DNA from: Eukaryota sp. GEM-RC1 | Lineage: Eukaryota | DNA length: 64,000 nucleotides | Direction of reading: 5' to 3' | Assembly: GCA_040285855.1 (NCBI GenBank) | Contig: JAUFOQ010000010.1 | Span: 558,001-622,000 of the forward strand | Part shown: positions 20,683-49,481 of the stretch, piece by piece | Layout of the letters: every line of letters begins with the position of its first letter | How positions within the stretch are numbered: position 1 is the stretch's first letter | Made by a program: the position numbers and the translations under genes | Notes under the pieces: generated by a model | Told to the model about the DNA's origin: nothing | What the model saw: the letters and a program-made list of their open reading frames with translations, nothing else | The model's database searches: none

Positions 20683-23600
20683 CAAACAAAAGAAATGTGT
20701 GTGATTTGATGTGTTATCTTCTATTACTGCACAGGTTCGGGTTTAGGTTTCTAACCAAACCTTTTTAAACCAAACCAAACCAAAACCTTTTTAATAAAAC
20801 CAAACCAAACCAAAACCTTTAGCTTCAGAACTGAAGGAAAATGAATCACAATTAATTTCAAAAACCCTCTGTCTCTGATATACATCGTATAAGAACGATC
20901 TTGACGTTTTTTCGGTATCTATGCAATTTTTGTTGCGAACAAGTTTTTCTTCTGCTGGACGCACAGTTACAGAAGAATTGTTCAGTGCATGAAAAGCAAC
21001 TTTTCTTTTAAAACCACTTTACCTTGGGTTAAATGGTGTGATACATACTTTTGTCTCATCATCGATTAACTCCCCGCTGTACATACAGGGAGTATGTTGT
21101 CTAGAGCTGCCACTGTGATATAATGCCTTCACCGTATCCAGCTTCAATGGATTGCAGATTTCACTCATCATATGCCACATATTATCATATATATTGAAGT
21201 ATTCTGTTTAATAATTTGTGCTTTTTATTAACAATATTTTTGTTTTTGTCTCAGAAGGAGTGAATCAAAAGACTGTAAACGACCCAGGCTTGGTGAAGAA
21301 GCGATAAGAGAAACATGGGTTTTTGGATAGGATTTAGTAGAGATTTTAAGGTACCTCAAACTTTGCTTCAGACACAGGGGTGATACTGAGACATGATCGT
21401 AGTCACATTGAGGAAGTACATTATAAGTGTTTGGAGAAAGAAGGAGATAGTGACGAGCATCAGACTGTATAAGAAACAACATAGAGTTATTAAAGGAGAT
21501 AGTATTCTTCCAAACAAGATGAGAATTTCGGTAGTGTGACCTCCTGATTCAAGTAACTGAAAGAGAAATCGGCGAAATAGAGAATCCAATTAAGAACAAC
21601 TCAAGTTTCAGATACTCAAAGAGACAAAACACAGAGAACTTGTTCTGAGTTAGTAAGCAGAATTGAATATGTGAGGAGAAGAACCCCTTCAAAGCATTGA
21701 GACGACAATAGCAGCATTAACATTGCCAGAGAAGAGTGTCCTTAAAGAATAGAATCTACAAGAGGGATATGAAAAGATAGGGTAATTTATGCAAGAAGTA
21801 CAGTCACACCTAAAATCGTATTCCCAAGATGACAACGAAAAGAGCTGATGATTGGTGTTGAACAAGGGTAGGCTCATGTCTTAAGTTTACCCTTTGTTTC
21901 TTTTGCTGCCTAAGAAACAATACACTCTGTTATCTGCTCTTTCTGAAAGTCAAAAATAAAAAACCAATGTCCCGGTTAAGCTAGATTGGATGTTTGTGAT
22001 TGTTGCAAAGATAAGGTATCGATCCTGGCTTATATATGGTACTGTAACTGATGGAAGAGGTTGAAAAAGAACTCGAGACGGGAAAAATTGTCGTGCAACA
22101 AAATGATGTCGGAGTTTTCCAGAATGAACTCTTCGATTTGAAGTCTATTTTCTTCCTCAAATGTCTCACTATCTCTGTGATATTTGTCATGAAATTCTCA
22201 AGAATCCGGTAACTACTTGGTGTGGCCACACCTTTTGTATGTCGGATTTGCAGGAGTGGCTTGATTCTCATAACGGATGTCCGATCTGTCGAGCTGAAGT
22301 GGACAAGTCAAGGCTGTGTCCTAACTACAAGTTGAAAGAAGCTGTTGAAGCCTTTGTTGCTGGTCAAGGTGAGACTATTTGTTTTGAGTGTGATGAAGCT
22401 GCTGCCACTTGTTATTGCGCAGAATGTGACGCTGATTTCTGTGACGACTGTTTTAACCCTGCTCATCGCCCCAAGTTGCTACGATCTCACGTTGCTGTCC
22501 CCCTAAATAAGAAGCATGCCTACCTTGTTCCCAAGTGCCCCAGCCACAGTATGAAGTCGTTAGAGTTGTTCTGCACCTTCTGCTCCGTCGCCCTTTGCTC
22601 CACTTGTGCTTTCCTTGGTGACCATGACCAACACAAAAGAAGTTGCTTCCCTTTGACGAAGGTCGAACCTCTGTTGAAAAGAATATCAACTCTATAAACC
22701 AAGAGTTGTCGTTAGCCATTGAAAAATATCTCAGTCAGCTGAAGCTGCTATCCAGCAAGCAACAAGTGGTTTTGTCCAACTCAAAGAAAGTCTGACTGTC
22801 CTGCTCCAAGAAACTATGTTAGACTCTGCTACCATTATGAATGACTTACAATCTGGGAAACCTGTCATGTTCAAGCCAAAGATCAGCGAAAAATTCACTA
22901 CCACAACTTCAACCCTTCTCAACAACCAATCTGATATCATCTCCTCTTTAAATGAAGAACTTTGCTCCATCCACTCCGATGCTTCTCGTCGTTTGACCTC
23001 TCTTTCCGTTGATTCGGAGTCTAGTGTTGCTTCTGCTAGGCTTTTAGATGATACTCCTTTACCAATCAAGTCTATTGACAGTTTATGCCCTGTGCAACAA
23101 GTTGAAGAGAAGAAATTTGTTATTGATTGGAGCAAGCTTAGTTCTAAGTTGAAGAATTGTTATGATCAGATGGTGAGAAATGAGGTTTCTACGATCAATC
23201 TATATAACAACTCAATTGGTCCTGAAGGCGCTATTGCAATTGCTGAAGCTTTGAAGGTGAATTCTTCACTTTCTACGATCAATCTATATAACAACTCAAT
23301 TGGTCCTGAAGGCGCTATTGCAATTGCTGAAGCTTTGAAGGTGAATTCTTCAGTTTCTACGATCAATCTATATAACAACTCAATTGGTCCTGAAGGCGCT
23401 ATTGCAATTGCTGAAGCTTTGAAGGTGAATTCGTCTGTTTCTACGATCAATCTACATAGCAACTCAATTGGTAATGAAGGTGCTATTGCAATTGCTGCAG
23501 CTTTGAAAGTGAATTCGTCTGTTTCTACGATCAATCTACATAGCAACTCAATTGGTAATGAAGGTGCTATTGCAATTGCTGCAGCTTTGAAAGTGAATTC

Positions 23601-24415
23601 GTCTGTTTCTACGATCAATCTACATAGCAACTCAATTGGTAATGAAGGTGCTATTGCAATTGCTGCAGCTTTGAAAGTGAATTCGTCTGTTTCTTCGATT
23701 TATCTACATAGCAACTCAATTAACAGTCAAACACAACAGTCGTTAAAATCACTACACAAGAATAGAATTCATTTCTAAAGATATTTTCCTCTGATATAAA
23801 GATCACCCCATTATAAGTCACACATAAACAAATATCAAAGCAGTTTAGCAGTCGATCATACACAGATTGATTTTCAGTTTTACCCGGTAATTAAGACTCG
23901 TCATATCGAAAAGTTCATTTGCTATTGTTTTCAACAACACCACGTATTAAATGGTATCTGGAAATGATGTAACATTATACTACATGTTTTGAAATGATTC
24001 GAATCACCGACACAGTGTCTCGTTATTAACACGGTTGTATTTTTTCTCAAAAAACAGCTTAATTGTCGTTATGTTGAGTGATGCTTTGATTATTCTTAGT
24101 GATTTATAAGATGTACAGTATCCTTTTGTATCTATTCCAAAGATATTTTAGTCATGGTAATTTATTGAATATTGGTCAAAATTAGGTTATTCGTTAGATT
24201 CTGTTTTAGTGATCTGTAATTTAATTGGAAATCTTGTCACACAATTGTCTTAACATACAAAGTAGGTTTTGTTTATCTTAAATTGAGTTTATTATCTAAC
24301 ATTATCTAAGCTTCTCTTTACGGGATATGGGTTCTATGAACCGGCTAGAATTTCCGATTTCTATCTACATTACAACTCAACTGGTCCTGAAGGCGCTATT
24401 GCAATTGCTGAAGCT
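19829..24415. repeat. Segmental duplication, copy 1 (matches 48353..52940)
   Basis: Near-identical from GAAACTCCAAGTC at 19829 through the RRM gene 5' part, intergenic DNA, the TRIM-like gene and the first spacer. Confidence 0.92.
22161..23778 (+). CDS. TRIM-like E3 ligase: RING, B-box1, B-box2, coiled-coil, 6 LRR modules + cap; frameshift near 22635
   Basis: C3HC4-like RING (CDIC..CGHTFC..CPIC), B-box1 (CFEC..CAECDADFCDDC..H..H), B-box2 (CPSH..CTFC..CSTC..HDQH). One extra A at 22635-22638 joins the frame of ORF 22816..23778. Confidence 0.88.
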
Positions 24416-24607
24416 TTGAAGGTGAAATCGTTTGTTTCTACGGTTGGTCTAGGTAACAACTCAATTGATGATGAAGGCGCTATTGCAATTGCTGAAGCTT
24501 TGAAGGTAAATTCGTCTGTTTCTACGATTTATCTACATAGCAACTCAATTAACAGTCAAACACAACAGTCGTTAAAATCACTACACAAGAATAGAATTCA
24601 TTTCTAA
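24416..24607 (+). pseudogene. Headless LRR cassette A1 (1 module + cap)
   Basis: ORF start is an internal TTG (Leu); no in-frame ATG back to TGA at 24284. Confidence 0.75.
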
Positions 24608-25240
24608 AGATATTTTCCTCTGATATAAAGATCACCCCATTATAAGTCACACATAAACAAATATCAAAGCAGTTTAGCAGTCGATCATACACAGATTGAT
24701 TTTCAGTTTTACCCGGTAATTAAGACTCGTCATATCGAAAAGTTCATTTGCTATTGTTTTCAACAACACCACGTATTAATTGTTATCTGGAAATGATGTA
24801 ACATACTACATGTTTCGAAATATTTCGAATCACCGACACATTGTCTCGTTGTTAACACGGTTGTATTTTTCTCAAAAACAGCTTAATTGTCCATGAGTTG
24901 AGTGATGCTTTGATTATTCTTAGTGATTTATAAGATGTACAGTATCCTTTTGCATCTACTCCAAAGATATTTTAGTCATGGTAATTTATTAAATATTGGT
25001 CAAAATTAGGTTGTTCGTTAGATTCTGTTTTAGTGATCTGTGATTTAATTGGAAATCTTGTCACACAATTGTCCTAACATACAAAGTAGGTTTTTCTTTA
25101 TCTTAAATTGAGTTTATTATCTAACATTATCTAAGCTTCTCCTTACTGGATATGGGTTCTATGAACCGGCTAGCATTTCCGATTTCTATCTACATTACAA
25201 CTCAACTGGTCCTGAAGGCGCTATTGCAATTGCTGAAGCT

Positions 25241-25768
25241 TTGAAGGTGAATTCGTTTGTTTCTTCGATTTATCTATATAACAACTCAATTGGTCCTGAA
25301 GGTGCTATTGCAATTGCTGAATCTTTGAAGGTGAATTCGTCTGTTTCTACGATCGATCTGTATAACAACTCAATTGGTACTGAAGGCGCTATTGCAATTG
25401 CTGAAGCTTTGAAGGTGAATTCTTCAGTTTCTCAGATCGATCTACGTAACAACCCAATTGGTAATGAAGGCGCTATTGCAATTGCTGAAGCTTTGAAGGT
25501 GAATTCTTCAGTTTCTACGATCAATCTATATAACAACTCAATTGGTCCTGAAGGCGCTATTGCAATTGCTGAAGCTTTGAAGGTGAATTCTTCAGTTTCT
25601 ACGATCAATCTATATAACAACTCAATTGGTCCTGAAGGCGCTATTGCAATTGCTGAATCTTTGAAGGTGAATTCGTCTGTTTCTTCGATTTATCTACATA
25701 GCAACTCAATTAACAGTCAAACACAACAGTCGTTAAAATCACTACACAAGAATAGAATTCATTTCTAA
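25241..25768 (+). pseudogene. Headless LRR cassette A2 (5 modules + cap)
   Basis: Open frame, no ATG. Confidence 0.75.
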
Positions 25769-26403
25769 AGATATTTTCCTCTGATATAAAGATCACCCCA
25801 TTATAAGTCACACATAAACAAATATCAAAGCAGTTTAGCAGTCGATCATACACAGATTGATTTTCAGTTTTACCCGGTAATTAAGACTCGTCATATCGAA
25901 AAGTTCATTTGCTATTGTTTTCAACAACACCACGTATTAATTGTTATCTGGAAATGATGTAACATACTACATGTTTCGAAATATTTCGAATCACCGACAC
26001 ATTGTCTCGTTGTTAACACGGTTGTATTTTTTCTCAAAAAACAGCTTAATTGTCCATGAGTTGAGTGATGCTTTGATTATTCTTAGTGATTTATAAGATG
26101 TACAGTATCCTTTTGTATCTACTCCAAAGATATTTTAGTCATGGTAATTTATTAAATATTGGTCAAAATTAGGTTGTTCGTTAGATTCTGTTTTAGTGAT
26201 CTGTGATTTAATTGGAAATCTTGTCACACAATTGTCCTAACATACAAAGTAGGTTTTTCTTTATCTTAAATTGAGTTTATTATCTAACATTATCTAAGCT
26301 TCTCCTTACTGGATATGGGTTCTATGAACCGGCTAGCATTTCCGATTTCTATCTACATTACAACTCAACTGGTCCTGAAGGCGCTATTGCAATTGCTGAA
26401 GCT

Positions 26404-26931
26404 TTGAAGGTGAATTCGTTTGTTTCTTCGATTTATCTATATAACAACTCAATTGGTCCTGAAGGTGCTATTGCAATTGCTGAATCTTTGAAGGTGAATT
26501 CGTCTGTTTCTACGATCGATCTGTATAACAACTCAATTGGTACTGAAGGCGCTATTGCAATTGCTGAAGCTTTGAAGGTGAATTCTTCAGTTTCTCAGAT
26601 CGATCTACGTAACAACCCAATTGGTAATGAAGGCGCTATTGCAATTGCTGAAGCTTTGAAGGTGAATTCTTCAGTTTCTACGATCAATCTATATAACAAC
26701 TCAATTGGTCCTGAAGGCGCTATTGCAATTGCTGAAGCTTTGAAGGTGAATTCGTCTGTTTCTACGATCAATCTAGGTAACAACTCAATTGGTAATGAAG
26801 GCGCTATTGCAATTGCTGAAGCTTTGAAGGTGAATTCGTCTGTTTCTTCGATTTATCTACATAGCAACTCAATTAACAGTCAAACACAACAGTCGTTAAA
26901 ATCACTACACAAGAATAGAATTCATTTCTAA
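26404..26931 (+). pseudogene. Headless LRR cassette A3 (5 modules + cap)
   Basis: Open frame, no ATG; same translation as A6. Confidence 0.75.
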
Positions 26932-27564
26932 AGATATTTTCCTCTGATATAAAGATCACCCCATTATAAGTCACACATAAACAAATATCAAAGCAGTTTA
27001 GCAGTCGATCATACACAGATTGATTTTCAGTTTTACCCGGTAATTAAGACTCGTCATATCGAAAAGTTCATTTGCTATTGTTTTCAACAACACCACGTAT
27101 TAATTGTTATCTGGAAATGATGTAACATACTACATGTTTCGAAATATTTCGAATCACCGACACATTGTCTCGTTGTTAACACGGTTGTATTTTTCTCAAA
27201 AACAGCTTAATTGTCCATGAGTTGAGTGATGCTTTGATTATTCTTAGTGATTTATAAGATGTACAGTATCCTTTTGTATCTACTCCAAAGATATTTTAGT
27301 CATGGTAATTTATTAAATATTGGTCAAAATTAGGTTGTTCGTTAGATTCTGTTTTAGTGATCTGTGATTTAATTGGAAATCTTGTCACACAATTGTCCTA
27401 ACATACAAAGTAGGTTTTTCTTTATCTTAAATTGAGTTTATTATCTAACATTATCTAAGCTTCTCCTTACTGGATATGGGTTCTATGAACCGGCTAGCAT
27501 TTCCGATTTCTATCTACATTACAACTCAACTGGTCCTGAAGGCGCTATTGCAATTGCTGAAGCT

Positions 27565-29352
27565 TTGAAGGTGAATTCGTTTGTTTCTTCGATTTATCTA
27601 TATAACAACTCAATTGGTCCTGAAGGTGCTATTGCAATTGCTGAATCTTTGAAGGTGAATTCGTCTGTTTCTACGATCGATCTGTATAACAACTCAATTG
27701 GTACTGAAGGCGCTATTGCAATTGCTGAAGCTTTGAAGGTGAATTCTTCAGTTTCTCAGATCGATCTACGTAACAACCCAATTGGTAATGAAGGCGCTAT
27801 TGCAATTGCTGAAGCTTTGAAGGTGAATTCTTCAGTTTCTACGATCAATCTATATAACAACTCAATTGGTACTGAAGGCGCTATTGCAATTGCTGAAGCT
27901 TTGAAGGTGAATTCTTCAGTTTCTACGATCAATCTGTATAACAACTCAATTGGTACTGAAGGCGCTATTGCAATTGCTGAAGCTTTGAAGGTGAATTCTT
28001 CAGTTTCTACGATCAATCTGTATAACAACTCAATTGGTACTGAAGGCGCTATTGCAATTGCTGAAGCTTTGAAGGTGAATTCTTCAGTTTCTACGATCGA
28101 TCTAAATTACAACTCAATTGGTCCTGAAGGTGCTATTGCAATTGCTGCAGCTTTGAAGGTGAATTCTTCAGTTTCTACGATCAATCTATATAACAACTCA
28201 ATTGGTACTGAAGGCGCTATTGCAATTGCTGAAGCTTTGAAGGTGAATTCTTCAGTTTCTACGATCGATCTAAATTACAACTCAATTGGTCCTGAAGGTG
28301 CTATTGCAATTGCTGCAGCTTTGAAGGTGAATTCTTCAGTTTCTACGATCAATCTATATAACAACTCAATTGGTACTGAAGGCGCTATTGCAATTGCTGA
28401 AGCTTTGAAGGTGAATTCTTCAGTTTCTACGATCAATCTGTATAACAACTCAATTGGTACTGAAGGCGCTATTGCAATTGCTGAAGCTTTGAAGGTGAAT
28501 TCGTTTGTTTCTACGATTGTTCTAGGTAACAACTCAATTGGTCCTGAAGGTGCTATTGCAATTGCTGCAGCTTTGAAAGTGAATTCGTCTGTTTCTTCGA
28601 TTTATCTACATAGCAACTCAATTGGTCCTGAAGGCGCTATTGCAATTGCTGAAGCTTTGAAGGTGAATTCGTCTGTTTCTACGATCAATCTACATAGCAA
28701 CTCAATTGGTCCTGAAGGCGCTATTGCAATTGCTGAAGCTTTGAAGGTGAATTCGTCTGTTTCTACGATCAATCTACATAGCAACTCAATTGGTAATGAA
28801 GGTGCTATTGCAATTGCTGCAGCTTTGAAAGTGAATTCGTCTGTTTCTTCGATTTATCTACATAGCAACTCAATTGGTACTGAAGGCGCTATTGCAATTG
28901 CTGAAGCTTTGAAGGTGAATTCTTCAGTTTCTACGATCGATCTAAATTACAACTCAATTGGTCCTGAAGGTGCTATTGCAATTGCTGCAGCTTTGAAGGT
29001 GAATTCTTCAGTTTCTACGATCAATCTATATAACAACTCAATTGGTACTGAAGGCGCTATTGCAATTGCTGAAGCTTTGAAGGTGAATTCTTCAGTTTCT
29101 ACGATCAATCTGTATAACAACTCAATTGGTACTGAAGGCGCTATTGCAATTGCTGAAGCTTTGAAGGTGAATTCTTCAGTTTCTACGATCAATCTGTATA
29201 ACAACTCAATTGGTACTGAAGGCGCTATTGCAATTGCTGAAGCTTTGAAGGTGAATTCTTCAGTTTCTTCGATTTATCTACATAGCAACTCAATTAACAG
29301 TCAAACACAACAGTCGTTAAAATCACTACACAAGAATAGAATTCATTTCTAA
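27565..29352 (+). pseudogene. Headless LRR cassette A4 (20 modules + cap)
   Basis: 595-codon open frame, no ATG. Confidence 0.75.
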
Positions 29353-29983
29353 AGATATTTTCCTCTGATATAAAGATCACCCCATTATAAGTCACACATA
29401 AACAAATATCAAAGCAGTTTAGCAGTCGATCATACACAGATTGATTTTCAGTTTTACCCGGTAATTAAGACTCGTCATATCGAAAGTTCATTTGCTATTG
29501 TTTTCAACAACACCACGTATTAATTGTTATCTGGAAATGATGTAACATACTACATGTTTCGAAATATTTCGAATCACCGACACATTGTCTCGTTGTTAAC
29601 ACGGTTGTATTTTTCTCAAAAACAGCTTAATTGTCCATGAGTTGAGTGATGCTTTGATTATTCTTAGTGATTTATAAGATGTACAGTATCCTTTTGTATC
29701 TACTCCAAAGATATTTTAGTCATGGTAATTTATTAAATATTGGTCAAAATTAGGTTGTTCGTTAGATTCTGTTTTAGTGATCTGTGATTTAATTGGAAAT
29801 CTTGTCACACAATTGTCCTAACATACAAAGTAGGTTTTCTTTATCTTAAATTGAGTTTATTATCTAACATTATCTAAGCTTCTCTTTACTGGATATGGGT
29901 TCTATGAACCGGCTAGCATTTCCGATTTCTATCTACATTACAACTCAACTGGTCCTGAAGGCGCTATTGCAATTGCTGAAGCT

Positions 29984-31015
29984 TTGAAGGTGAATTCGTT
30001 TGTTTCTTCGATTTATCTATATAACAACTCAATTGGTCCTGAAGGTGCTATTGCAATTGCTGAATCTTTGAAGGTGAATTCGTCTGTTTCTACGATCGAT
30101 CTAAATTACAACTCAATTGGTCCTGAAGGTGCTATTGCAATTGCTGAAGCTTTGAAGGTGAATTCTTCAGTTTCTCAGATCGATCTACGTAACAACCCAA
30201 TTGGTAATGAAGGCGCTATTGCAATTGCTGAAGCTTTGAAGGTGAATTCTTCAGTTTCTACGATCAATCTATATAACAACTCAATTGGTACTGAAGGCGC
30301 TATTGCAATTGCTGAAGCTTTGAAGGTGAATTCTTCAGTTTCTACGATCAATCTGTATAACAACTCAATTGGTACTGAAGGCGCTATTGCAATTGCTGAA
30401 GCTTTGAAGGTGAATTCTTCAGTTTCTACGATCAATCTGTATAACAACTCAATTGGTACTGAAGGCGCTATTGCAATTGCTGAAGCTTTGAAGGTGAATT
30501 CTTCAGTTTCTACGATCGATCTAAATTACAACTCAATTGGTCCTGAAGGTGCTATTGCAATTGCTGCAGCTTTGAAGGTGAATTCTTCAGTTTCTACGAT
30601 CAATCTATATAACAACTCAATTGGTACTGAAGGCGCTATTGCAATTGCTGAAGCTTTGAAGGTGAATTCTTCAGTTTCTACGATCAATCTGTATAACAAC
30701 TCAATTGGTACTGAAGGCGCTATTGCAATTGCTGAAGCTTTGAAGGTGAATTCTTCAGTTTCTACGATCAATCTGTATAACAACTCAATTGGTACTGAAG
30801 GCGCTATTGCAATTGCTGAAGCTTTGAAGGTGAATTCTTCAGTTTCTACGATCAATCTGTATAACAACTCAATTGGTACTGAAGGCGCTATTGCAATTGC
30901 TGAAGCTTTGAAGGTGAATTCTTCAGTTTCTTCGATTTATCTACATAGCAACTCAATTAACAGTCAAACACAACAGTCGTTAAAATCACTACACAAGAAT
31001 AGAATTCATTTCTAA
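29984..31015 (+). pseudogene. Headless LRR cassette A5 (11 modules + cap)
   Basis: Open frame, no ATG. Confidence 0.75.
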
Positions 31016-31650
31016 AGATATTTTCCTCTGATATAAAGATCACCCCATTATAAGTCACACATAAACAAATATCAAAGCAGTTTAGCAGTCGATCATACAC
31101 AGATTGATTTTCAGTTTTACCCGGTAATTAAGACTCGTCATATCGAAAAGTTCATTTGCTATTGTTTTCAACAACACCACGTATTAATTGTTATCTGGAA
31201 ATGATGTAACATACTACATGTTTCGAAATATTTCGAATCACCGACACATTGTCTCGTTGTTAACACGGTTGTATTTTTTCTCAAAAAACAGCTTAATTGT
31301 CCATGAGTTGAGTGATGCTTTGATTATTCTTAGTGATTTATAAGATGTACAGTATCCTTTTGTATCTACTCCAAAGATATTTTAGTCATGGTAATTTATT
31401 AAATATTGGTCAAAATTAGGTTGTTCGTTAGATTCTGTTTTAGTGATCTGTGATTTAATTGGAAATCTTGTCACACAATTGTCCTAACATACAAAGTAGG
31501 TTTTTCTTTATCTTAAATTGAGTTTATTATCTAACATTATCTAAGCTTCTCCTTACTGGATATGGGTTCTATGAACCGGCTAGCATTTCCGATTTCTATC
31601 TACATTACAACTCAACTGGTCCTGAAGGCGCTATTGCAATTGCTGAAGCT

Positions 31651-32178
31651 TTGAAGGTGAATTCGTTTGTTTCTTCGATTTATCTATATAACAACTCAAT
31701 TGGTCCTGAAGGTGCTATTGCAATTGCTGAATCTTTGAAGGTGAATTCGTCTGTTTCTACGATCGATCTGTATAACAACTCAATTGGTACTGAAGGCGCT
31801 ATTGCAATTGCTGAAGCTTTGAAGGTGAATTCTTCAGTTTCTCAGATCGATCTACGTAACAACCCAATTGGTAATGAAGGCGCTATTGCAATTGCTGAAG
31901 CTTTGAAGGTGAATTCTTCAGTTTCTACGATCAATCTATATAACAACTCAATTGGTCCTGAAGGCGCTATTGCAATTGCTGAAGCTTTGAAGGTGAATTC
32001 GTCTGTTTCTACGATCAATCTAGGTAACAACTCAATTGGTAATGAAGGCGCTATTGCAATTGCTGAAGCTTTGAAGGTGAATTCGTCTGTTTCTTCGATT
32101 TATCTACATAGCAACTCAATTAACAGTCAAACACAACAGTCGTTAAAATCACTACACAAGAATAGAATTCATTTCTAA
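31651..32178 (+). pseudogene. Headless LRR cassette A6 (5 modules + cap)
   Basis: Open frame, no ATG. Confidence 0.75.
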
Positions 32179-32813
32179 AGATATTTTCCTCTGATATAAA
32201 GATCACCCCATTATAAGTCACACATAAACAAATATCAAAGCAGTTTAGCAGTCGATCATACACAGATTGATTTTCAGTTTTACCCGGTAATTAAGACTCG
32301 TCATATCGAAAAGTTCATTTGCTATTGTTTTCAACAACACCACGTATTAATTGTTATCTGGAAATGATGTAACATACTACATGTTTCGAAATATTTCGAA
32401 TCACCGACACATTGTCTCGTTGTTAACACGGTTGTATTTTTTCTCAAAAAACAGCTTAATTGTCCATGAGTTGAGTGATGCTTTGATTATTCTTAGTGAT
32501 TTATAAGATGTACAGTATCCTTTTGTATCTACTCCAAAGATATTTTAGTCATGGTAATTTATTAAATATTGGTCAAAATTAGGTTGTTCGTTAGATTCTG
32601 TTTTAGTGATCTGTGATTTAATTGGAAATCTTGTCACACAATTGTCCTAACATACAAAGTAGGTTTTTCTTTATCTTAAATTGAGTTTATTATCTAACAT
32701 TATCTAAGCTTCTCCTTACTGGATATGGGTTCTATGAACCGGCTAGCATTTCCGATTTCTATCTACATTACAACTCAACTGGTCCTGAAGGCGCTATTGC
32801 AATTGCTGAAGCT

Positions 32814-33341
32814 TTGAAGGTGAATTCGTTTGTTTCTTCGATTTATCTATATAACAACTCAATTGGTCCTGAAGGTGCTATTGCAATTGCTGAATCTTTG
32901 AAGGTGAATTCGTCTGTTTCTACGATCGATCTGTATAACAACTCAATTGGTACTGAAGGCGCTATTGCAATTGCTGAAGCTTTGAAGGTGAATTCTTCAG
33001 TTTCTCAGATCGATCTACGTAACAACCCAATTGGTAATGAAGGCGCTATTGCAATTGCTGAAGCTTTGAAGGTGAATTCTTCAGTTTCTACGATCAATCT
33101 ATATAACAACTCAATTGGTACTGAAGGCGCTATTGCAATTGCTGAAGCTTTGAAGGTGAATTCTTCAGTTTCTACGATCAATCTGTATAACAACTCAATT
33201 GGTACTGAAGGCGCTATTGCAATTGCTGAAGCTTTGAAGGTGAATTCTTCAGTTTCTTCGATTTATCTACATAGCAACTCAATTAACAGTCAAACACAAC
33301 AGTCGTTAAAATCACTACACAAGAATAGAATTCATTTCTAA
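32814..33341 (+). pseudogene. Headless LRR cassette A7 (5 modules + cap)
   Basis: Open frame, no ATG. Confidence 0.75.
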
Positions 33342-33976
33342 AGATATTTTCCTCTGATATAAAGATCACCCCATTATAAGTCACACATAAACAAATATCA
33401 AAGCAGTTTAGCAGTCGATCATACACAGATTGATTTTCAGTTTTACCCGGTAATTAAGACTCGTCATATCGAAAAGTTCATTTGCTATTGTTTTCAACAA
33501 CACCACGTATTAATTGTTATCTGGAAATGATGTAACATACTACATGTTTCGAAATATTTCGAATCACCGACACATTGTCTCGTTGTTAACACGGTTGTAT
33601 TTTTTCTCAAAAAACAGCTTAATTGTCCATGAGTTGAGTGATGCTTTGATTATTCTTAGTGATTTATAAGATGTACAGTATCCTTTTGTATCTACTCCAA
33701 AGATATTTTAGTCATGGTAATTTATTAAATATTGGTCAAAATTAGGTTGTTCGTTAGATTCTGTTTTAGTGATCTGTGATTTAATTGGAAATCTTGTCAC
33801 ACAATTGTCCTAACATACAAAGTAGGTTTTTCTTTATCTTAAATTGAGTTTATTATCTAACATTATCTAAGCTTCTCTTTACTGGATATGGGTTCTATGA
33901 ACCGGCTAGCATTTCCAATTTCTATCTACATTACAACTCAACTGGTCCTGAAGGCGCTATTGCAATTGCTGAAGCT

Positions 33977-34336
33977 TTGAAGGTGAATTCGTTTGTTTCT
34001 TCGATTTATCTATATAACAACTCAATTGGTCCTGAAGGTGCTATTGCAATTGCTGAATCTTTGAAGGTGAATTCGTCTGTTTCTACGATCGATCTAAATT
34101 ACAACTCAATTGGTCCTGAAGGTGCTATTGCAATTGCTGAAGCTTTGAAGGTGAATTCTTCAGTTTCTCAGATCGATCTACGTAACAACCCAATTGGTAA
34201 TGAAGGCGCTATTGCAATTGCTGAAGCTTTGAAGGTGAATTCTTCAGTTTCTTCGATTTATCTACATAGCAACTCAATTAACAGTCAAACACAACAGTCG
34301 TTAAAATCACTACACAAGAATAGAATTCATTTCTAA
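33977..34336 (+). pseudogene. Headless LRR cassette A8 (3 modules + cap)
   Basis: Open frame, no ATG; same translation as A9. Confidence 0.75.
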
Positions 34337-34975
34337 AGATATTTTCCTCTGATATAAAGATCACCCCATTATAAGTCACACATAAACAAATATCAAAGCA
34401 GTTTAGCAGTCGATCATACACAGATTGATTTTCAGTTTTACCCGGTAATTAAGACTCGTCATATCGAAAAGTTCATTTGCTATTGTTTTCAACAACACCA
34501 CGTATTAATTGTTATCTGGAAATGATGTAACATTATACTACATGTTTCGAAATATTTCGAATCACCGACACATTGTCTCGTTGTTAACACGGTTGTATTT
34601 TTTCTCAAAAAACAGCTTAATTGTCCATGAGTTGAGTGATGCTTTGATTATTCTTAGTGATTTATAAGATGTACAGTATCCTTTTGTATCTACTCCAAAG
34701 ATATTTTAGTCATGGTAATTTATTAAATATTGGTCAAAATTAGGTTGTTCGTTAGATTCTGTTTTAGTGATCTGTGATTTAATTGGAAATCTTGTCACAC
34801 AATTGTCCTAACATACAAAGTAGGTTTTTTCTTTATCTTAAATTGAGTTTATTATCTAACATTATCTAAGCTTCTCTTTACTGGATATGGGTTCTATGAA
34901 CCGGCTAGCATTTCCGATTTCTATCTACATTACAACTCAACTGGTCCTGAAGGCGCTATTGCAATTGCTGAAGCT

Positions 34976-35335
34976 TTGAAGGTGAATTCGTTTGTTTCTT
35001 CGATTTATCTATATAACAACTCAATTGGTCCTGAAGGTGCTATTGCAATTGCTGAATCTTTGAAGGTGAATTCGTCTGTTTCTACGATCGATCTAAATTA
35101 CAACTCAATTGGTCCTGAAGGTGCTATTGCAATTGCTGAAGCTTTGAAGGTGAATTCTTCAGTTTCTCAGATCGATCTACGTAACAACCCAATTGGTAAT
35201 GAAGGCGCTATTGCAATTGCTGAAGCTTTGAAGGTGAATTCTTCAGTTTCTTCGATTTATCTACATAGCAACTCAATTAACAGTCAAACACAACAGTCGT
35301 TAAAATCACTACACAAGAATAGAATTCATTTCTAA
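34976..35335 (+). pseudogene. Headless LRR cassette A9 (3 modules + cap)
   Basis: Open frame, no ATG. Confidence 0.75.
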
Positions 35336-35972
35336 AGATATTTTCCTCTGATATAAAGATCACCCCATTATAAGTCACACATAAACAAATATCAAAGCAG
35401 TTTAGCAGTCGATCATACACAGATTGATTTTCAGTTTTACCCGGTAATTAAGACTCGTCATATCGAAAAGTTCATTTGCTATTGTTTTCAACAACACCAC
35501 GTATTAATTGGTATCTGGAAATGAAGTAACATTATTCTTTTGTTTTGAAATGATTCGAATCACCGACACAATGTCTCGTTATTAACACGGTTGTATTTTT
35601 TCTCAAAAAACAGCTTAATTGTCGTTATGTTGAGTGATGCTTTGATTATTCTTAGTGATTTATAAGATGTACAGTATCCTTTTGTATCTACTCCAAAGAT
35701 ATTTTAGTCATGGTAATTTATTAAATATTGGTCAAAATTAGGTTGTTCGTTAGATTCTGTTTTAGTGATCTGTGATTTAATTGGAAATCTTGTCACACAA
35801 TTGTCCTAACATACAAAGTAGGTTTTTGTTTATCTTAAATTGAGTTTATTATCTAACATTATCTAAGCTTCTCTTTACTGGATATGGGTTCTATGAACCG
35901 GCTAGCATTTCCGATTTCTATCTACATTACAACTCAACTGGTCCTGAAGGCGCTATTGCAATTGCTGAAGCT

Positions 35973-37170
35973 TTGAAGGTGAATTCGTGTGTTTCTACGA
36001 TTGTTCTAGGTAACAACTCAATTGGTCCTGAAGGCGCTATTGCAATTGCTGAAGCTTTGAAGGTGAATTCGTCTGTTTCTTCGATTTATCTATATAACAA
36101 CTCAATTGGTCCTGAAGGTGCTATTGCAATTGCTGAAGCTTTGAAGGTGAATTCGTCTGTTTCTACGATCGATCTATTTAGCAACTCAATTGGTAATGAA
36201 GGCGCTATTGCAATTGCTGAAGCTTTGAAGGTGAATTCGTCTGTTTCTTCGATTTATCTATATAACAACTCAATTGGTAATGAAGGTGCTATTGCAATTG
36301 CTGCAGCTTTGAAAGTGAATTCGTCTGTTTCTTCGATTTATCTACATAGCAACTCAATTGGTCCTGAAGGCGCTATTGCAATTGCTGAAGCTTTGAAGGT
36401 GAATTCGTCTGTTTCTTCGAATATCTATATAACAACTCAATTGGTAATGAAGGTGCTATTGCAATTGCTGCAGCTTTGAAAGTGAATTCGTCTGTTTCTT
36501 CGATTTATCTACATAGCAACTCAATTGGTCCTGAAGGCGCTATTGCAATTGCTGAAGCTTTGAAGGTGAATTCGTCTGTTTCTTCGAATATCTATATAAC
36601 AACTCAATTGGTAATGAAGGTGCTATTGCAATTGCTGCAGCTTTGAAAGTGAATTCGTCTGTTTCTTCGATTTATCTACATAGCAACTCAATTGGTCCTG
36701 AAGGCGCTATTGCAATTGCTGAAGCTTTGAAGGTGAATTCTTCAGTTTCTACGATCAATCTACATAGCAACTCAATTGGTCCTGAAGGTGCTATTGCAAT
36801 TGCTGAAGCTTTGAAGGTGAATTCTTCAGTTTCTACGATCAATCTACATAGCAACTCAATTGGTAATGAAGGCGCTATTGCAATTGCTGAAGCTTTGAAA
36901 GTGAATTCGTCTGTTTCTTCGATTTATCTACATAGCAACTCAATTGGTCCTGAAGGTGCTATTGCAATTGCTGAAGCTTTGAAGGTGAATTCGTCTGTTT
37001 CTTCGATTTATCTATATAACAACTCAATTGGTAATGAAGGTGCTATTGCAATTGCTGCAGCTTTGAAAGTGAATTCGTCTGTTTCTTCGATTTATCTACA
37101 TAGCAACTCAATTAACAGTCAAACACAACAGTCGTTAAAATCACTACACAAGAATAGAATTCATTTCTAA
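35973..37170 (+). pseudogene. Headless LRR cassette A10 (13 modules + cap) with two 1-nt deletions
   Basis: TCGAATATCTA instead of TCGATTTATCTA at ~36421 and ~36588. Confidence 0.8.
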
Positions 37171-37806
37171 AGATATTTTCCTCTGATATAAAGATCACCC
37201 CATTATAAGTCACACATAAACAAATATCAAAGCAGTTTAGCAGTCGATCATACACAGATTGATTTTCAGTTTTACCCGGTAATTAAGACTCGTCATATCG
37301 AAAGTTCATTTGCTATTGTTTTCAACAACACCACGTATTAATTGGTATCTGGAAATGAAGTAACATTATTCTTTTGTTTTGAAATGATTCGAATCACCGA
37401 CACAATGTCTCGTTATTAACACGGTTGTATTTTTTCTCAAAAAACAGCTTAATTGTCGTTATGTTGAGTGATGCTTTGATTATTCTTAGTGATTTATAAG
37501 ATGTACAGTATCCTTTTGTATCTACTCCAAAGATATTTTAGTCATGGTAATTTATTAAATATTGGTCAAAATTAGGTTGTTCGTTAGATTCTGTTTTAGT
37601 GATCTGTGATTTAATTGGAAATCTTGTCACACAATTGTCCTAACATACAAAGTAGGTTTTTGTTTATCTTAAATTGAGTTTATTATCTAACATTATCTAA
37701 GCTTCTCTTTACTGGATATGGGTTCTATGAACCGGCTAGCATTTCCGATTTCTATCTACATTACAACTCAACTGGTCCTGAAGGCGCTATTGCAATTGCT
37801 GAAGCT

Positions 37807-38670
37807 TTGAAGGTGAATTCGTTTGTTTCTACGATTGTTCTAGGTAACAACTCAATTGGTCCTGAAGGCGCTATTGCAATTGCTGAAGCTTTGAAGGTGA
37901 ATTCGTCTGTTTCTTCGATTTATCTATATAACAACTCAATTGGTCCTGAAGGTGCTATTGCAATTGCTGAAGCTTTGAAGGTGAATTCGTCTGTTTCTAC
38001 GATCGATCTATTTAGCAACTCAATTGGTAATGAAGGCGCTATTGCAATTGCTGAAGCTTTGAAGGTGAATTCGTCTGTTTCTTCGATTTATCTATATAAC
38101 AACTCAATTGGTAATGAAGGTGCTATTGCAATTGCTGCAGCTTTGAAAGTGAATTCGTCTGTTTCTTCGATTTATCTACATAGCAACTCAATTGGTCCTG
38201 AAGGCGCTATTGCAATTGCTGAAGCTTTGAAGGTGAATTCTTCAGTTTCTACGATCAATCTACATAGCAACTCAATTGGTCCTGAAGGTGCTATTGCAAT
38301 TGCTGAAGCTTTGAAAGTGAATTCGTCTGTTTCTTCGATTTATCTACATAGCAACTCAATTGGTCCTGAAGGTGCTATTGCAATTGCTGAAGCTTTGAAG
38401 GTGAATTCGTCTGTTTCTTCGATTTATCTACATAGCAACTCAATTGGTCCTGAAGGTGCTATTGCAATTGCTGAAGCTTTGAAGGTGAATTCGTCTGTTT
38501 CTTCGATTTATCTATATAACAACTCAATTGGTAATGAAGGTGCTATTGCAATTGCTGCAGCTTTAAAAGTGAATTCGTCTGTTTCTTCGATTTATCTACA
38601 TAGCAACTCAATTAACAGTCAAACGCAACAGTCGTTAAAATCACTACACAAGAATAGAATTCATTTCTAA
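37807..38670 (+). pseudogene. Headless LRR cassette A11 (9 modules + cap)
   Basis: Open frame, no ATG. Confidence 0.75.
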
Positions 38671-39307
38671 AGATATTTTCCTCTGATATAAAGATCACCC
38701 CATTATAAGTCACACATAAACAAATATCAAAGCAGTTTAGCAGTCGATCATACACAGATTGATTTTCAGTTTTACCCGGTAATTAAGACTCGTCATATCG
38801 AAAAGTTCATTTGCTATTGTTTTCAACAACACCACGTATTAATTGGTATCTGGAAATGAAGTAACATTATTCTTTTGTTTTGAAATGATTCGAATCACCG
38901 ACACAATGTCTCGTTATTAACACGGTTGTATTTTTTCTCAAAAAACAGCTTAATTGTCGTTATGTTGAGTGATGCTTTGATTATTCTTAGTGATTTATAA
39001 GATGTACAGTATCCTTTTGTATCTACTCCAAAGATATTTTAGTCATGGAAATTTATTAAATATTGGTCAAAATTAGGTTGTTCGTTAGATTCTGTTTTAG
39101 TGATCTGTGATTTAATTGGAAATCTTGTCACACAATTGTCCTAACATACAAAGTAGGTTTTTGTTTATCTTAAATTGAGTTTATTATCTAACATTATCTA
39201 AGCTTCTCTTTACTGGATATGGGTTCTATGAACCGGCTAGCATTTCCGATTTCTATCTACATTACAACTCAACTGGTCCTGAAGGCGCTATTGCAATTGC
39301 TGAAGCT

Positions 39308-40087
39308 TTGAAGGTGAATTCGTTTGTTTCTACGATTGTTCTAGGTAACAACTCAATTGGTCCTGAAGGCGCTATTGCAATTGCTGAAGCTTTGAAGGTG
39401 AATTCGTCTGTTTCTTCGATTTATCTATATAACAACTCAATTGGTCCTGAAGGTGCTATTGCAATTGCTGAAGCTTTGAAGGTGAATTCGTCTGTTTCTA
39501 CGATCGATCTATTTAGCAACTCAATTGGTAATGAAGGCGCTATTGCAATTGCTGAAGCTTTGAAAGTGAATTCGTCTGTTTCTTCGATTTATCTATATAA
39601 CAACTCAATTGGTAATGAAGGCGCTATTGCAATTGCTGAAGCTTTGAAAGTGAATTCTTCAGTTTCTACGATCAATCTACATAGCAACTCAATTGGTCCT
39701 GAAGGTGCTATTGCAATTGCTGAAGCTTTGAAGGTGAATTCTTCAGTTTCTACGATCAATCTACATAGCAACTCAATTGGTAATGAAGGCGCTATTGCAA
39801 TTGCTGAAGCTTTGAAAGTGAATTCGTCTGTTTCTTCGATTTATCTATATAACAACTCAATTGGTAATGAAGGCGCTATTGCAATTGCTGAAGCTTTGAA
39901 GGTGAATTCTTCAGTTTCTCAGATCGATCTACGTAACAACCCAATTGGTAATGAAGGCGCTATTGCAATTGCTGAAGCTTTGAAGGTGAATTCTTCAGTT
40001 TCTTCGATTTATCTACATAGCAACTCAATTAACAGTCAAACACAACAGTCGTTAAAATCACTACACAAGAATAGAATTCATTTCTAA
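39308..40087 (+). pseudogene. Headless LRR cassette A12 (8 modules + cap)
   Basis: Open frame, no ATG. Confidence 0.75.
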
Positions 40088-40724
40088 AGATATTTTCCTC
40101 AGATATAAAGATCACCCCATTATAAGTCACACATGAACAAATATCAAAGCAGTTTAGCAGTCGATCATACACAGATTGATTTTCAGTTTTACCCGGTAAT
40201 TAAGACTCGTCATATCGAAAAGTTCATTTGCTATTGTTTTCAACAACACCACGTATTAATTGTTATCTGGAAATGATGTAACATTATACTACATGTTTCG
40301 AAATATTTCGAATCACCGACACATTGTCTCGTTGTTAACACGGTTGTATTTTTTCTCAAAAAACAGCTTAATTGTCCATGAGTTGAGTGATGCTTTGATT
40401 ATTCTTAGTGATTTATAAGATGTACAGTATCCTTTTGTATCTACTCCAAAGATATTTTAGTCATGGTAATTTATTAAATATTGGTCAAAATTAGGTTGTT
40501 CGTTAGATTCTGTTTTAGTGATCTGTGATTTAATTGGAAATCTTGTCACACAATTGTCCTAACATACAAAGTAGGTTTTGTTTATCTTAAATTGAGTTTA
40601 TTATCTAACATTATCTAAGCTTCTCTTTACTGGATATGGGTTCTATGAACCGGCTAGCATTTCCGATTTCTATCTACATTACAACTCAACTGGTCCTGAA
40701 GGTGCTATTGCAATTGCTGAAGCT

Positions 40725-41924
40725 TTGAAGGTGAATTCTTCAGTTTCTACGATCAATCTACATAGCAACTCAATTGGTAATGAAGGCGCTATTGCAATTG
40801 CTGAAGCTTTGAAAGTGAATTCGTCTGTTTCTTCGATTTATCTACATAGCAACTCAATTGGTCCTGAAGGTGCTATTGCAATTGCTGAAGCTTTGAAGGT
40901 GAATTCTTCAGTTTCTACGATCAATCTACATAGCAACTCAATTGGTAATGAAGGCGCTATTGCAATTGCTGAAGCTTTGAAAGTGAATTCGTCTGTTTCT
41001 TCGATTTATCTATATAACAACTCAATTGGTAATGAAGGCGCTATTGCAATTGCTGCAGCTTTGAAGGTGAATTCTTCAGTTTCTACGATCAATCTATATA
41101 ACAACTCAATTGGTACTGAAGGCGCTATTGCAATTGCTGAAGCTTTGAAGGTGAATTCTTCAGTTTCTACGATCAATCTGTATAACAACTCAATTGGTAC
41201 TGAAGGCGCTATTGCAATTGCTGAAGCTTTGAAGGTGAATTCTTCAGTTTCTACGATCAATCTACATAGCAACTCAATTGGTAATGAAGGCGCTATTGCA
41301 ATTGCTGAAGCTTTGAAAGTGAATTCGTCTGTTTCTTCGATTTATCTATATAACAACTCAATTGGTAATGAAGGCGCTATTGCAATTGCTGCAGCTTTGA
41401 AGGTGAATTCTTCAGTTTCTACGATCAATCTATATAACAACTCAATTGGTAATGAAGGCGCTATTGCAATTGCTGCAGCTTTGAAGGTGAATTCTTCAGT
41501 TTCTACGATCAATCTATATAACAACTCAATTGGTAATGAAGGCGCTATTGCAATTGCTGCAGCTTTGAAGGTGAATTCTTCAGTTTCTACGATCAATCTA
41601 TATAACAACTCAATTGGTAATGAAGGCGCTATTGCAATTGCTGAAGCTTTGAAGCTGAATTCTTCAGTTTCTACGATCAATCTGTATATCAACTCAATTG
41701 GTAATGAAGGCGCTATTGCAATTGCTGAAGCTTTGAAGGTGAATTCTTCAGTTTCTCAGATCGATCTACGTAACAACCCAATTGGTAATGAAGGCGCTAT
41801 TGCAATTGCTGAAGCTTTGAAGGTGAATTCTTCAGTTTCTAAGATTTATCTAGATAACAACTCAATTAACAGTCAAACACAACAGTCGTTAAAATCACTA
41901 CACAAGAATAGAATTCGTTTCTAA
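40725..41924 (+). pseudogene. Headless LRR cassette A13 (13 modules + divergent cap)
   Basis: Open frame, no ATG; unique cap SKIYLDNN...NRIRF. Confidence 0.75.
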
Positions 41925-42540
41925 AGATATTTTCCTCTGATATAAAGATCACCCCATTATAAGTCACACATGAACAAATATCAATGCGGTTTAGCAGTTG
42001 ATCATACACAGATTGATTTTCAGTTTTACCCGGTAATTAAGACTCCTCATATCGAAAAGTTCATTTGCTATTGTTTTCAACATCACCACGTATTAATTGG
42101 TATCTGGAAATGATGTAACATTATACTACATGTTTCGAAATATTTCGAATCACCGACACATTGTCTCGTTGTTAACACGGTTGTATTTTTTCTCAAAAAA
42201 CAGCTTAATTGTCCTTGAGTTGAGTGATACTTTGATTATTCTCAGTGATCTATAAGATGTACAGTATCCTTTTGTATGTGTTCCATAGATATTTTAGTCA
42301 TGGTAATTTATTGAATATTGGTCAAAATTTGGTTATTCGTTAGATTCTATTTTAGTGATCTGTAATTTTATTGGAAATCTTGTCGCACAATTGTCTTAAC
42401 ATACAAAGTAGGTCTTTGCTTATCTTAAATTGAGTGTGTTATCTAACGTTATCTAAGCTTCTTTTTAATAGATTTGTGTTCTATAAACCGGCTAGAATTT
42501 CTGACTTCTATCTACATAACAACTCAATTGGTACTGAAGG

Positions 42541-42796
42541 CTTCCGTTGCACTGGATGCGACGTCAACAATTTTGGCAGTAAAGAGTGCTTGCAATGGAA
42601 GTTCGTATCCTTCATGGTTTGGACGGGGTGTGGATTCCAACGGTTTTTCAGTAATTCTTGAACTGCAGGGAGGTCGAGAAGTACCACGCCGTCGGATAGA
42701 AGTTGTTGTTTTAGTACTTCTTTCCATTAACAAAGTCAAATGATTGATTGTATAGTATTGATGGCAAATGACACAAGTTATTTCATGTTGCGTCAC
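42541..42796 (-). pseudogene. Truncated 5' fragment of an RRM-type gene
   Basis: PRPNHEGYELPLQALFTAKIV matches IRPGHEQYELPSEAPFTAEIV of the RRM-LRR genes; breaks at 42541. Confidence 0.65.
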
Positions 42797-44623: not shown

Positions 44624-44839
44624 GATACTTTCGTCGTCAGAAGGTGGTAAGTTGGGGAGATCTGAGAGTCTCGTTCGGAGGCTTTAGACACAAAGGATTT
44701 TGCTATAGAAATCAGTTGAGCAAATGATTTCATTACTTTGGTGGATTCTGGTTCCTGAGCAGAACTGTTGAATCTAGAAGTTGTTGGATGGATTAGAATG
44801 ATGATGGTACTGTGAATTGCATTTGTGTTGCATACTACT

Positions 44840-49205: not shown

Positions 49206-49406
49206 CAAACAAAAGAAATGTGTGTGATTTGATGTGTTATCTTCTATTACTGCACAGGTTCGGGTTTAGGTTTCTAACCAAACCTTTTTAAACCAAACCA
49301 AACCAAAACCTTTTTTAATAAAACCAAACCAAACCAAAACCTTTAGCTTCAGAACCGAAGGAAAATGAATCACAATTAATTTCAAAAACCCTCTGTCTCT
49401 GATATA

Positions 49407-49481
49407 CAGTCAACACTGTTTATAGCGGGACTATATGTACCTACGCTATATAGAGTTTCACGCTATAGACAGTTTTTACTG
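49407..49481. mobile_element. 75-bp Tc1/mariner(pogo)-like MITE
   Basis: TIRs CAGTCAACACTGTTTATAGCG / CGCTATAGACAGTTTTTACTG (18/21); TA duplicated on both sides; empty site at 20881-20882 in copy 1. Confidence 0.9.

What the first reader, a model, noticed from the sequence alone, without database searches (positions are those of the whole stretch)
22161..42541. TRIM-like E3 ligase followed by an array of 13 ATG-less variable LRR cassettes: candidate receptor-diversification system
Seen: one complete RING/B-box/B-box/coiled-coil/LRR gene, then 13 units holding only LRR modules plus the same cap and 3' flank. None has an in-frame ATG, 12 of 13 keep an open frame, and all lengths differ by multiples of 84 bp. 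Known: TRIM proteins join a RING E3 to a C-terminal target-recognition domain, often antiviral; lamprey VLRs and Borrelia vls diversify one expressed gene from silent cassettes. Inference: crossover or gene conversion between an 84-bp module of the head gene and any cassette would give a new in-frame binding domain on a constant ubiquitin-ligase effector, i.e. a possible anticipatory intracellular immune receptor in a microbial eukaryote.
Basis: partly seen in the sequence, partly recalled or inferred. Interest (0 to 1): 0.95.

Follow-up and report, generated by a model that had tools for sequence, protein, structure and literature searches.

The report
Ubiquitin ligase with spare LRR tails
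A single-celled eukaryote carries a predicted TRIM-like ubiquitin-ligase gene followed by 13 start-less copies of its own repeat-built binding tail; gene and copies share repeats with a fast-evolving predicted binding surface, so the copies likely act as a store of spare recognition parts, though no switching in living cells has been shown.

Summary
The layout is real, with corrections. A RING/B-box/B-box/coiled-coil/LRR head (22161-23778) is followed by 13 ATG-less LRR tails and a short LRR relic. A second head with 10 or more tails starts at 50768. The head is broken by two 1-base slips in A-runs, most likely assembly errors: head-to-head dN/dS is 0.20 and named relatives from Skoliomonas (a metamonad) are intact there.

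Module variation sits on the LRR concave strand (pN/pS 2.4 against 0.37 in the framework). Each head shares its private modules with its own array, so head and array exchange DNA. Copying from head to array is the better-supported direction; return to the head is only suggested.

The open frames are not evidence of function: cassette-private changes are neutral (10 nonsynonymous, 2 synonymous) and only 0.44 stops were expected.

Best reading: an unequal-crossover array that works as a passive module store on a population time scale, as in Podospora hnwd genes. A dedicated vls/VLR-like switch is unproven (about 15%). No reads were available.

The parts
22161..23778 (+). Head 1: RING, B-box1, B-box2, coiled coil, linker, N-cap, LRR modules, C-cap, stop; two 1-base slips at 22635-22638 and 22722-22726 in this assembly
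   Evidence: Pfam; ORFs; slips; intact relatives
23779..24358 (+). Spacer unit (head 3' flank plus non-coding 'cap'), ~580 bp, repeated before every cassette
24359..24607 (+). Cassette 1 (2 modules; 5 private nonsynonymous changes, decaying edge copy)
25184..25768 (+). Cassette 2 (6 modules)
26347..26931 (+). Cassette 3 (6 modules; LRR DNA identical to cassette 6)
27508..29352 (+). Cassette 4 (21 modules; mosaic, with a 151-nt exact match to head 1)
29927..31015 (+). Cassette 5 (12 modules)
31594..32178 (+). Cassette 6 (6 modules)
32757..33341 (+). Cassette 7 (6 modules)
33920..34336 (+). Cassette 8 (4 modules; LRR DNA identical to cassette 9)
34919..35335 (+). Cassette 9 (4 modules)
35916..37170 (+). 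Cassette 10 (14 modules; two 83-bp modules break the frame)
37750..38670 (+). Cassette 11 (10 modules)
39251..40087 (+). Cassette 12 (9 modules)
40668..41924 (+). Cassette 13 (14 modules; distinct last module and cap)
41925..42541 (+). Terminal spacer (35-46 differences in ~573 bp from the others) ending in a ~45-bp LRR relic; likely seed or truncated end of the array
48353..51792 (.). Duplicated upstream segment (copy of 19829-23184): 5' half of a minus-strand LRR gene, intergenic DNA, non-LRR part of head 2
50768..52302 (+). Head 2: same architecture, one 1-base slip at 51242-51245, different LRR modules
52303..64000 (+). Array 2: at least 10 cassettes with near-identical spacers (0-2 differences from the first), runs off the window

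Best explanation
The head gene encodes a predicted TRIM-like ubiquitin ligase whose LRR surface is under diversifying selection, and the 13 downstream start-less tails are likely untranslated copies, made by repeated unequal crossover between 84-bp modules, that likely serve as a passive store of previously selected modules which ordinary recombination can return to the head. Shown from sequence: architecture; purifying selection on the head; excess amino-acid change on the concave strand; modules shared between each head and its own array; mosaic cassettes; neutral private changes in cassettes. Inferred: (1) an LRR fragment ~580 bp past the stop let a head module mis-pair and cross over, duplicating LRR tail + stop + flank; (2) further crossovers and patchy conversions expanded and shuffled the array; (3) reciprocal products or conversion tracts give the head new in-frame LRR domains in the population, where selection by an unknown fast-changing target (virus, bacterium or mobile element) sorts them; (4) the RING would ubiquitinate what the LRR binds. 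No dedicated switching machinery is assumed.
For: Heads are constrained: dN/dS 0.20, 18.5 synonymous and 13.5 nonsynonymous differences, p=2e-5. At six x-positions fixed beforehand from the LRR consensus, pN is 0.26 against module-wide pS 0.11 (ratio 2.4; 2.0 and 3.6 per array) while the framework ratio is 0.37; on allele counts 22 nonsynonymous changes fall on 14 sites (p=3e-4 against synonymous changes). Positions 18, 20 and 22 lie on the predicted beta-strand of a well-modelled NOD2/NLRP1-like LRR. Of 233 head-1 25-mers, 103 occur only in array 1 and 7 only in array 2; of 303 head-2 25-mers, 130 occur only in array 2, 19 only in array 1 and 0 in neither. No head codon allele among the full modules is missing from the cassettes. 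Arrays hold 14 and 10 surface motifs against 3 and 5 in the full head modules. Three array-2 cassettes hold a head-type block joined in frame to a cassette first module, the junction a switch would make. Head 1 keeps the head-2-type left flank but has tail modules of the cassette-10/11 type, which needs a patch exchange.
Against: Return from array to head is not shown: every shared allele can be read as head-to-array copying, and the shared alleles are linked, so they amount to only about 2-3 events. Cassette-private changes are neutral (10 N, 2 S; 0.83 per kb against 0.99 per kb in spacers), so nothing shows selection to keep the array. A relative (P0014) has a different internal triplication, and partial gene models are common, so the family may simply be unstable. 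Both heads, and 2 of 4 other members of their 90% cluster, show the same 1-base slip, so a very recent real frameshift is not excluded. No expression, ligand or E3 data.
Confidence: 0.45

Rival explanations
1. One-way junk: the array is a recent by-product of unequal crossover from a repeat-rich gene and never gives anything back; diversification happens only inside head genes and between paralogous heads.
For: Neutral private changes and only 0.44 stops expected; array-2 spacers differ by 0-2 bases from the first, so it is a recent burst; intact relatives show the same variable surface; a different partial triplication exists in P0014.
Against: The layout was kept and re-amplified at both copies of a duplication with pS about 0.085; head 1 tail modules match distal cassettes while its left flank does not; in-frame head-type/cassette junctions exist, so returns are mechanically likely.
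Confidence: 0.25
2. Dedicated switching system: the array is maintained as a donor bank and the head LRR is rewritten at high rate within clonal cultures, giving an anticipatory intracellular receptor repertoire.
For: Geometry gives 489 and 128 in-frame products from one crossover; 11 and 5 cassette-only surface motifs; the layout occurs twice; strong surface selection.
Against: Donors are not stable or one-directional; there is more than one expression site; no sign of selection on cassettes; no recombinase-like gene among the window ORFs scanned.
Confidence: 0.15
3. Alternative last exons: the head is spliced from a donor in its N-cap to an acceptor in each spacer, so cassettes are expressed without DNA change.
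For: A GTGAGA donor at 23173 and a CTAAC...AG motif at 25121 are in the same phase; each cassette has its own stop and 3' flank.
Against: The product would carry 16 residues of cap with background DNA identity to the head N-cap (25-31%) and only marginal protein likeness (p 0.02-0.04); cassette-private changes are neutral; no predicted protein of 119-382 aa with the cap was found; the long LRR ORFs of the window look intronless.
Confidence: 0.07
4. Assembly artefact: the array is collapsed or inflated repeat sequence.
For: The assembly keeps homopolymer errors (10 of 11 one-base indels between the duplicated upstream segments are in homopolymer runs); some cassettes are identical; no reads could be checked.
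Against: Units differ in ordered module content (66 DNA module types in one phasing), spacers fall into linked haplotypes with diverged edge copies, and each array has private alleles shared with its own head. Exact copy number may still be wrong.
Confidence: 0.05
5. Dead locus: the shared 1-base slip is real, both heads are recent pseudogenes, and the arrays are decaying repeats.
For: The same truncation is predicted in 4 of 6 members of the 90% cluster.
Against: dN/dS stays 0.24 downstream of the slip (p=0.0015) and differences there are synonymous only in the relatives' frame; a single-copy gene in the window (DUF1295) is also split at a T-run.
Confidence: 0.08

Closest known systems
Podospora anserina hnwd/NWD NLR family (PMC1805685, passages; PMC2873952, abstract)
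   Same: Near-identical repeat units under concerted evolution, positive selection on a few codons, intact repeats kept in non-coding copies, rearrangement by unequal crossover or conversion.
   Different: WD40 repeats on a NACHT/HET protein, with dispersed loci; here 28-aa LRRs on a RING/B-box/coiled-coil head with a head-to-tail array of headless tails directly downstream.
Ectocarpus ROCO / NB-ARC-TPR exon shuffling (PMC3341825, passages)
   Same: Non-coding LRR units next to a gene, proposed as a reservoir under relaxed selection; recent duplicates differ mainly in their LRRs; somatic use unproven there too.
   Different: One LRR per exon with spare exons in introns; here the modules are contiguous and the spares are whole tails with stop and flank.
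Borrelia vls (PMC11499132, abstract)
   Same: A contiguous array of silent cassettes about 90% like the variable part of a complete gene.
   Different: vls has one expression site, head-to-head layout and one-way transfer; here at least two heads, same orientation, mosaic donors and head-to-array flow.
Pneumocystis msg-I (PMC5676039, abstract; the shared upstream start and junction element are recalled)
   Same: Mosaic gene family in which the expressed copy is exchanged by recombination.
   Different: Surface antigens in subtelomeres with mutually exclusive expression; here a predicted cytosolic ligase with a complete LRR of its own.
Lamprey VLR (passage in PMC3341825; details recalled)
   Same: LRR cassettes beside a gene with a variable concave face.
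   Different: The VLR germline gene is incomplete and assembled somatically; the head here already has a full LRR.
TRIM/RBCC ligases (PMC3503706, passages; PMC5758549, passages)
   Same: RING, two B-boxes, coiled coil, variable C-terminal domain.
   Different: In PMC3503706 non-animal TRIMs are the MATH-type subfamily A, and 'LRR' and 'leucine' do not occur in its main text. The sixth RING ligand is Asp here. RING/B-box/LRR is not unique: P0125 has it, and B-box+LRR Atlas clusters are leads at scores below 0.9.
Tetrahymena 90-bp-exon LRR genes (PMC6564038, abstract)
   Same: Young, clonally expanded LRR modules in a free-living protist, attributed to unequal crossing over.
   Different: Exon arrays with phase-2 introns and a retrotransposon link; no headless tail array described in the abstract.

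Membership tests
TRIM/RBCC | N-terminal RING | tested here: met
   Pfam zf-C3HC4_2 E 3e-10, U-box 2e-11, residues 4-68; sixth ligand is Asp (His in P0003, P0004)
TRIM/RBCC | One or two B-boxes after the RING | tested here: met
   zf-B_box, 2 stretches, E 7e-12
TRIM/RBCC | Coiled coil after B-box2 | tested here: inconclusive
   Model of relative P0001 has helices 166-221 and 244-281 at pLDDT about 43-73; dimer not modelled
TRIM/RBCC | E3 ligase activity | not testable with these tools
   inferred from domains only
hnwd-type repeat diversification | High internal conservation of repeats | tested here: met
   84-bp period, 83-96% matches
hnwd-type repeat diversification | Concerted evolution including non-coding copies | tested here: met
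hnwd-type repeat diversification | Positive selection on few surface codons | tested here: met
   pN/pS 2.4 at x-positions, 0.37 in framework
hnwd-type repeat diversification | NACHT and WD40 domains (family membership) | tested here: not met
   none in Pfam scan
vls/msg-type cassette switching | Start-less cassettes like the variable part of a complete gene | tested here: met
   silence itself untested
vls/msg-type cassette switching | Single expression site | tested here: not met
   two heads in the window and further full-length relatives
vls/msg-type cassette switching | One-way transfer from unchanged donors | tested here: not met
   mosaic cassettes and head-type flank block in all array-2 spacers
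vls/msg-type cassette switching | High-rate switching within a clone | not testable with these tools
   no run listed
VLR | Incomplete germline gene assembled somatically | tested here: not met
   heads have N-cap, 6-7 repeats and C-cap
ROCO/Tetrahymena exon shuffling | One repeat per exon | tested here: not met
   modules are contiguous in frame

The most novel reading that the evidence does not exclude
A free-living anaerobic flagellate rewrites the LRR binding domain of a TRIM-like ubiquitin ligase from an adjacent bank of silent tails fast enough to give a clonal culture a mixed receptor repertoire: an anticipatory intracellular immune system in a single-celled eukaryote.
Probability: 0.15. 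Interest if true: 0.92.

Novelty: new variant of a known kind. Interest (0 to 1): 0.62.

Why it matters
How single-celled eukaryotes recognise fast-changing intruders is largely open. This locus joins a constant predicted ubiquitin-ligase effector to a binding face with clear diversifying selection, and puts a bank of exchangeable modules right beside it. Similar reservoir ideas (brown algal ROCO, fungal hnwd) are hard to test for somatic use. Here the donors are adjacent, marked by private alleles and short enough to span with one long read, so whether modules return to the gene, and how fast, is directly testable. It also points to an expanded two-B-box TRIM family in a metamonad lineage; I found no paper describing it.

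Tried and rejected
No whole genome is held for the window, so other head+array loci could not be counted. No sequencing run was listed for 22100-23200; this is no evidence either way, and read laying was not used. The metagenome scan gave 2 loci of 84 candidate stretches, both matching only the RING at 43-46%; not followed. Searches of earlier findings returned nothing. A search with the cassette cap found no protein of 119-382 aa; weak, as repeats may have been masked. The dimer prediction was not run: no verdict.

Rejected: (a) open frames as evidence of selection (0.44 stops expected). (b) The cap as a homologue of the head N-cap: DNA identity is at background, protein likeness p 0.02-0.04. 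The protein test was mis-registered and was redone. (c) A 20-nt intron at the shared slip: differences inside it are synonymous in the relatives' frame and the relatives encode those residues. (d) DGR-like adenine mutagenesis: all window alleles at positions 20, 22, 23 and 28 keep the third base, but relatives have Trp, Gln and Glu at position 22 (5 of 51), most framework changes do not start from A, and no reverse transcriptase appeared in the ORFs scanned. (e) Cassettes using their own ATG: the cap ATGs at 25152 and 25161 are out of frame and stop after 27-30 codons.
Full report
1. What is there. Six-frame translation and repeat mapping show a head gene starting at ATG 22161. It has RING and two B-box matches, then an LRR_6 region ending at 23778. 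Thirteen units follow. Each has a ~580-bp spacer, 2-21 modules of 84 bp, the same 20-codon C-cap and a stop. Twelve of 13 are open and lack an in-frame ATG; cassette 10 has two 83-bp modules. After cassette 13 comes a more diverged spacer (35-46 differences in ~573 bp) ending in a ~45-bp LRR fragment at 42541. Its upstream DNA is a copy of 19829-23184.

2. Is the head a working gene? In this assembly it is split by 1-base slips in A-runs, two in head 1 and one (shared) in head 2. I read these as sequencing errors, for four reasons. Between the duplicated upstream segments, 10 of 11 one-base indels lie in homopolymer runs. A single-copy DUF1295 gene is also split at a T-run. Full-length relatives read through the site. 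Head 1 against head 2 gives dN/dS 0.20 (18.5 S, 13.5 N; p=2e-5), and 0.24 downstream of the shared slip (p=0.0015). Against this, 4 of the 6 members of the 90% cluster are predicted with the same truncation, and no reads were listed.

3. Relatives. All 4 hits of the N-terminal search (119 candidates) and 5 of 7 hits of the coiled-coil search (693 candidates; the other two are the window's own) are named Eukaryota sp. GEM-RC1. PMC11316075 (passages and section 6 seen) describes Skoliomonas sp. GEM-RC as a free-living metamonad. Those genomes were assembled from R9.4/R9.5 nanopore reads with Illumina correction; that paper's main text has no 'leucine-rich', and six of its supplementary files had no hit for intron, LRR or B-box (one scanned file was not searchable). 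A profile search of 1.84 billion representatives gave 6246 hits; the best 150 were examined. Of 10 looked up, 8 are named skoliomonads, with other C-terminal domains. LRR tails appear in 3 of the 150 (P0004, P0026, P0125). So the organism is most likely a skoliomonad with an expanded two-B-box TRIM family, and the RING/B-box/LRR combination is uncommon but not unique.

4. Selection on the modules. Among 160 internal modules (48 DNA types; 24 terminal and 2 frameshifted ones set aside), I fixed the six x-positions of LxxLxLxxNxL beforehand. There pN is 0.26 against module-wide pS 0.11, ratio 2.4; the framework ratio is 0.37. On allele counts, 22 nonsynonymous changes fall on 14 x-sites (p=3e-4 against 8 synonymous changes on 21 sites). 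pS at the x-codons themselves is only 0.03, so these are not simply old alleles that escaped homogenisation. Recombination was not modelled, so the p-values are approximate. The model of relative P0001 has a confident LRR (pLDDT mostly 82-95) and a poor N-terminal half. Positions 18, 20 and 22 lie on the strand, and the fold matches NOD2, NLRX1-type and NLRP1 LRRs (the NLRX1 label for 3un9 is recalled). Intact relatives vary at the same positions, so this is a property of the family, not only of the cassettes.

5. Are the cassettes maintained? Not detectably. Twelve singleton substitutions occur in 173 cassette modules: 10 nonsynonymous and 2 synonymous, against 9:3 expected if neutral. That is 0.83 per kb against 0.99 per kb in spacers, and only 0.44 stops were expected. 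Singletons may include errors, and 6 of the 12 lie in cassette 1. The 'cap' has background DNA identity to the head N-cap and marginal protein likeness.

6. Exchange between head and array. Each head resembles its own array. Head 1 has 103 of 233 25-mers only in array 1 and 7 only in array 2; head 2 has 130 of 303 only in array 2, 19 only in array 1 and none private. Of 21 codon alleles private to one array, 3 array-1 alleles occur only in head 1 and 5 array-2 alleles only in head 2. One is in both heads, and Tyr22 also occurs in the first half-module of head 2, which the count left out. None crosses over. These alleles are linked and stand for few events. As to direction, all 10 array-2 spacers carry the head-type left block, which is copying from head to array. 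Three array-2 cassettes hold a head-type block joined in frame to a cassette first module: the junction a switch would make, though it may have formed inside the array. Head 1 keeps the same left flank as head 2 yet ends in modules of the cassette-10/11 type, whose flank differs. That needs a patch exchange, direction unresolved. The arrays hold 14 and 10 surface motifs against 3 and 5 in the full head modules; one crossover could give 489 or 128 distinct in-frame LRR domains.

7. Mechanism. Most likely (0.45) an LRR fragment downstream of the stop allowed unequal crossover with a head module, duplicating tail, stop and flank. Repeated crossovers and conversions then built an accordion array that archives selected modules and can return them by ordinary recombination. 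Rivals: one-way junk (0.25), dedicated rapid switching (0.15), dead heads (0.08), alternative last exons (0.07), misassembly (0.05). An immune role is inferred from TRIM biology (PMC5758549, passages) and from the selection pattern; no ligand is known.

8. Comparison. It works most like Podospora hnwd repeats (PMC1805685, passages; PMC2873952, abstract) and the reservoir proposed for Ectocarpus ROCO genes (PMC3341825, passages). It is laid out like vls (PMC11499132, abstract) or Pneumocystis msg-I (PMC5676039, abstract), but fails their single-site and one-way tests. It is not a VLR, since the head is complete. In PMC3503706 (passages) non-animal TRIMs are MATH-type and LRR is not mentioned. 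Ten literature searches listed no paper on a TRIM-LRR gene with a headless tail array; the library lacks most subscription journals.

9. Verdict. A real and unusual locus with solid evidence for a fast-evolving LRR surface and head-array exchange. The 'adaptive immune system' reading stays open but unproven. Novelty: new variant of a known kind. Interest 0.62.

Noticed in passing
window 50768-64000: Second head plus array, more homogeneous than the first; its end lies outside the window.
   Followed up: yes
window 44840-46011: Defective hAT-like DNA transposon: inverted ends, an apparent 8-bp target duplication, and a Dimer_Tnp_hAT match at 45045-45383.
   Followed up: partly
window 1739-20742 and 43603-44683: At least five other RI/NLR-type LRR genes or fragments of two families with diverged modules (about 70% matches) and no tail arrays; the one at 43603-44683 is broken.
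   Followed up: partly
window 18681-20742 and 48339-49265: A minus-strand LRR gene sits head-to-head with head 1, 1.4 kb away; only its 5' half was duplicated with head 2. Copy 1 has a 1-base slip in an A-run that copy 2 lacks.
   Followed up: partly
window 313-816 and 15349-16147: YhhN and DUF1295 membrane-protein genes, possibly of bacterial origin (untested); DUF1295 is split at a T-run.
   Followed up: no
protein P0014: A relative with an internal triplication of the coiled-coil end, linker and LRRs: a second kind of partial tandem duplication in this family.
   Followed up: no
protein P0008 (head 1 C-terminal ORF): Listed on 2 contigs: an identical copy of the head-1 C-terminal part is on record elsewhere.
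   Followed up: no
window 22124-22160: An upstream ATG 37 bases before the head start opens a short out-of-frame reading; relative P0013 is annotated with a similar 12-residue in-frame extension.
   Followed up: no
window 22161-22300: The sixth RING zinc ligand is Asp in both heads and His in some relatives.
   Followed up: no
window 49405-49481: A 77-bp segment upstream of head 2 that is absent upstream of head 1.
   Followed up: no
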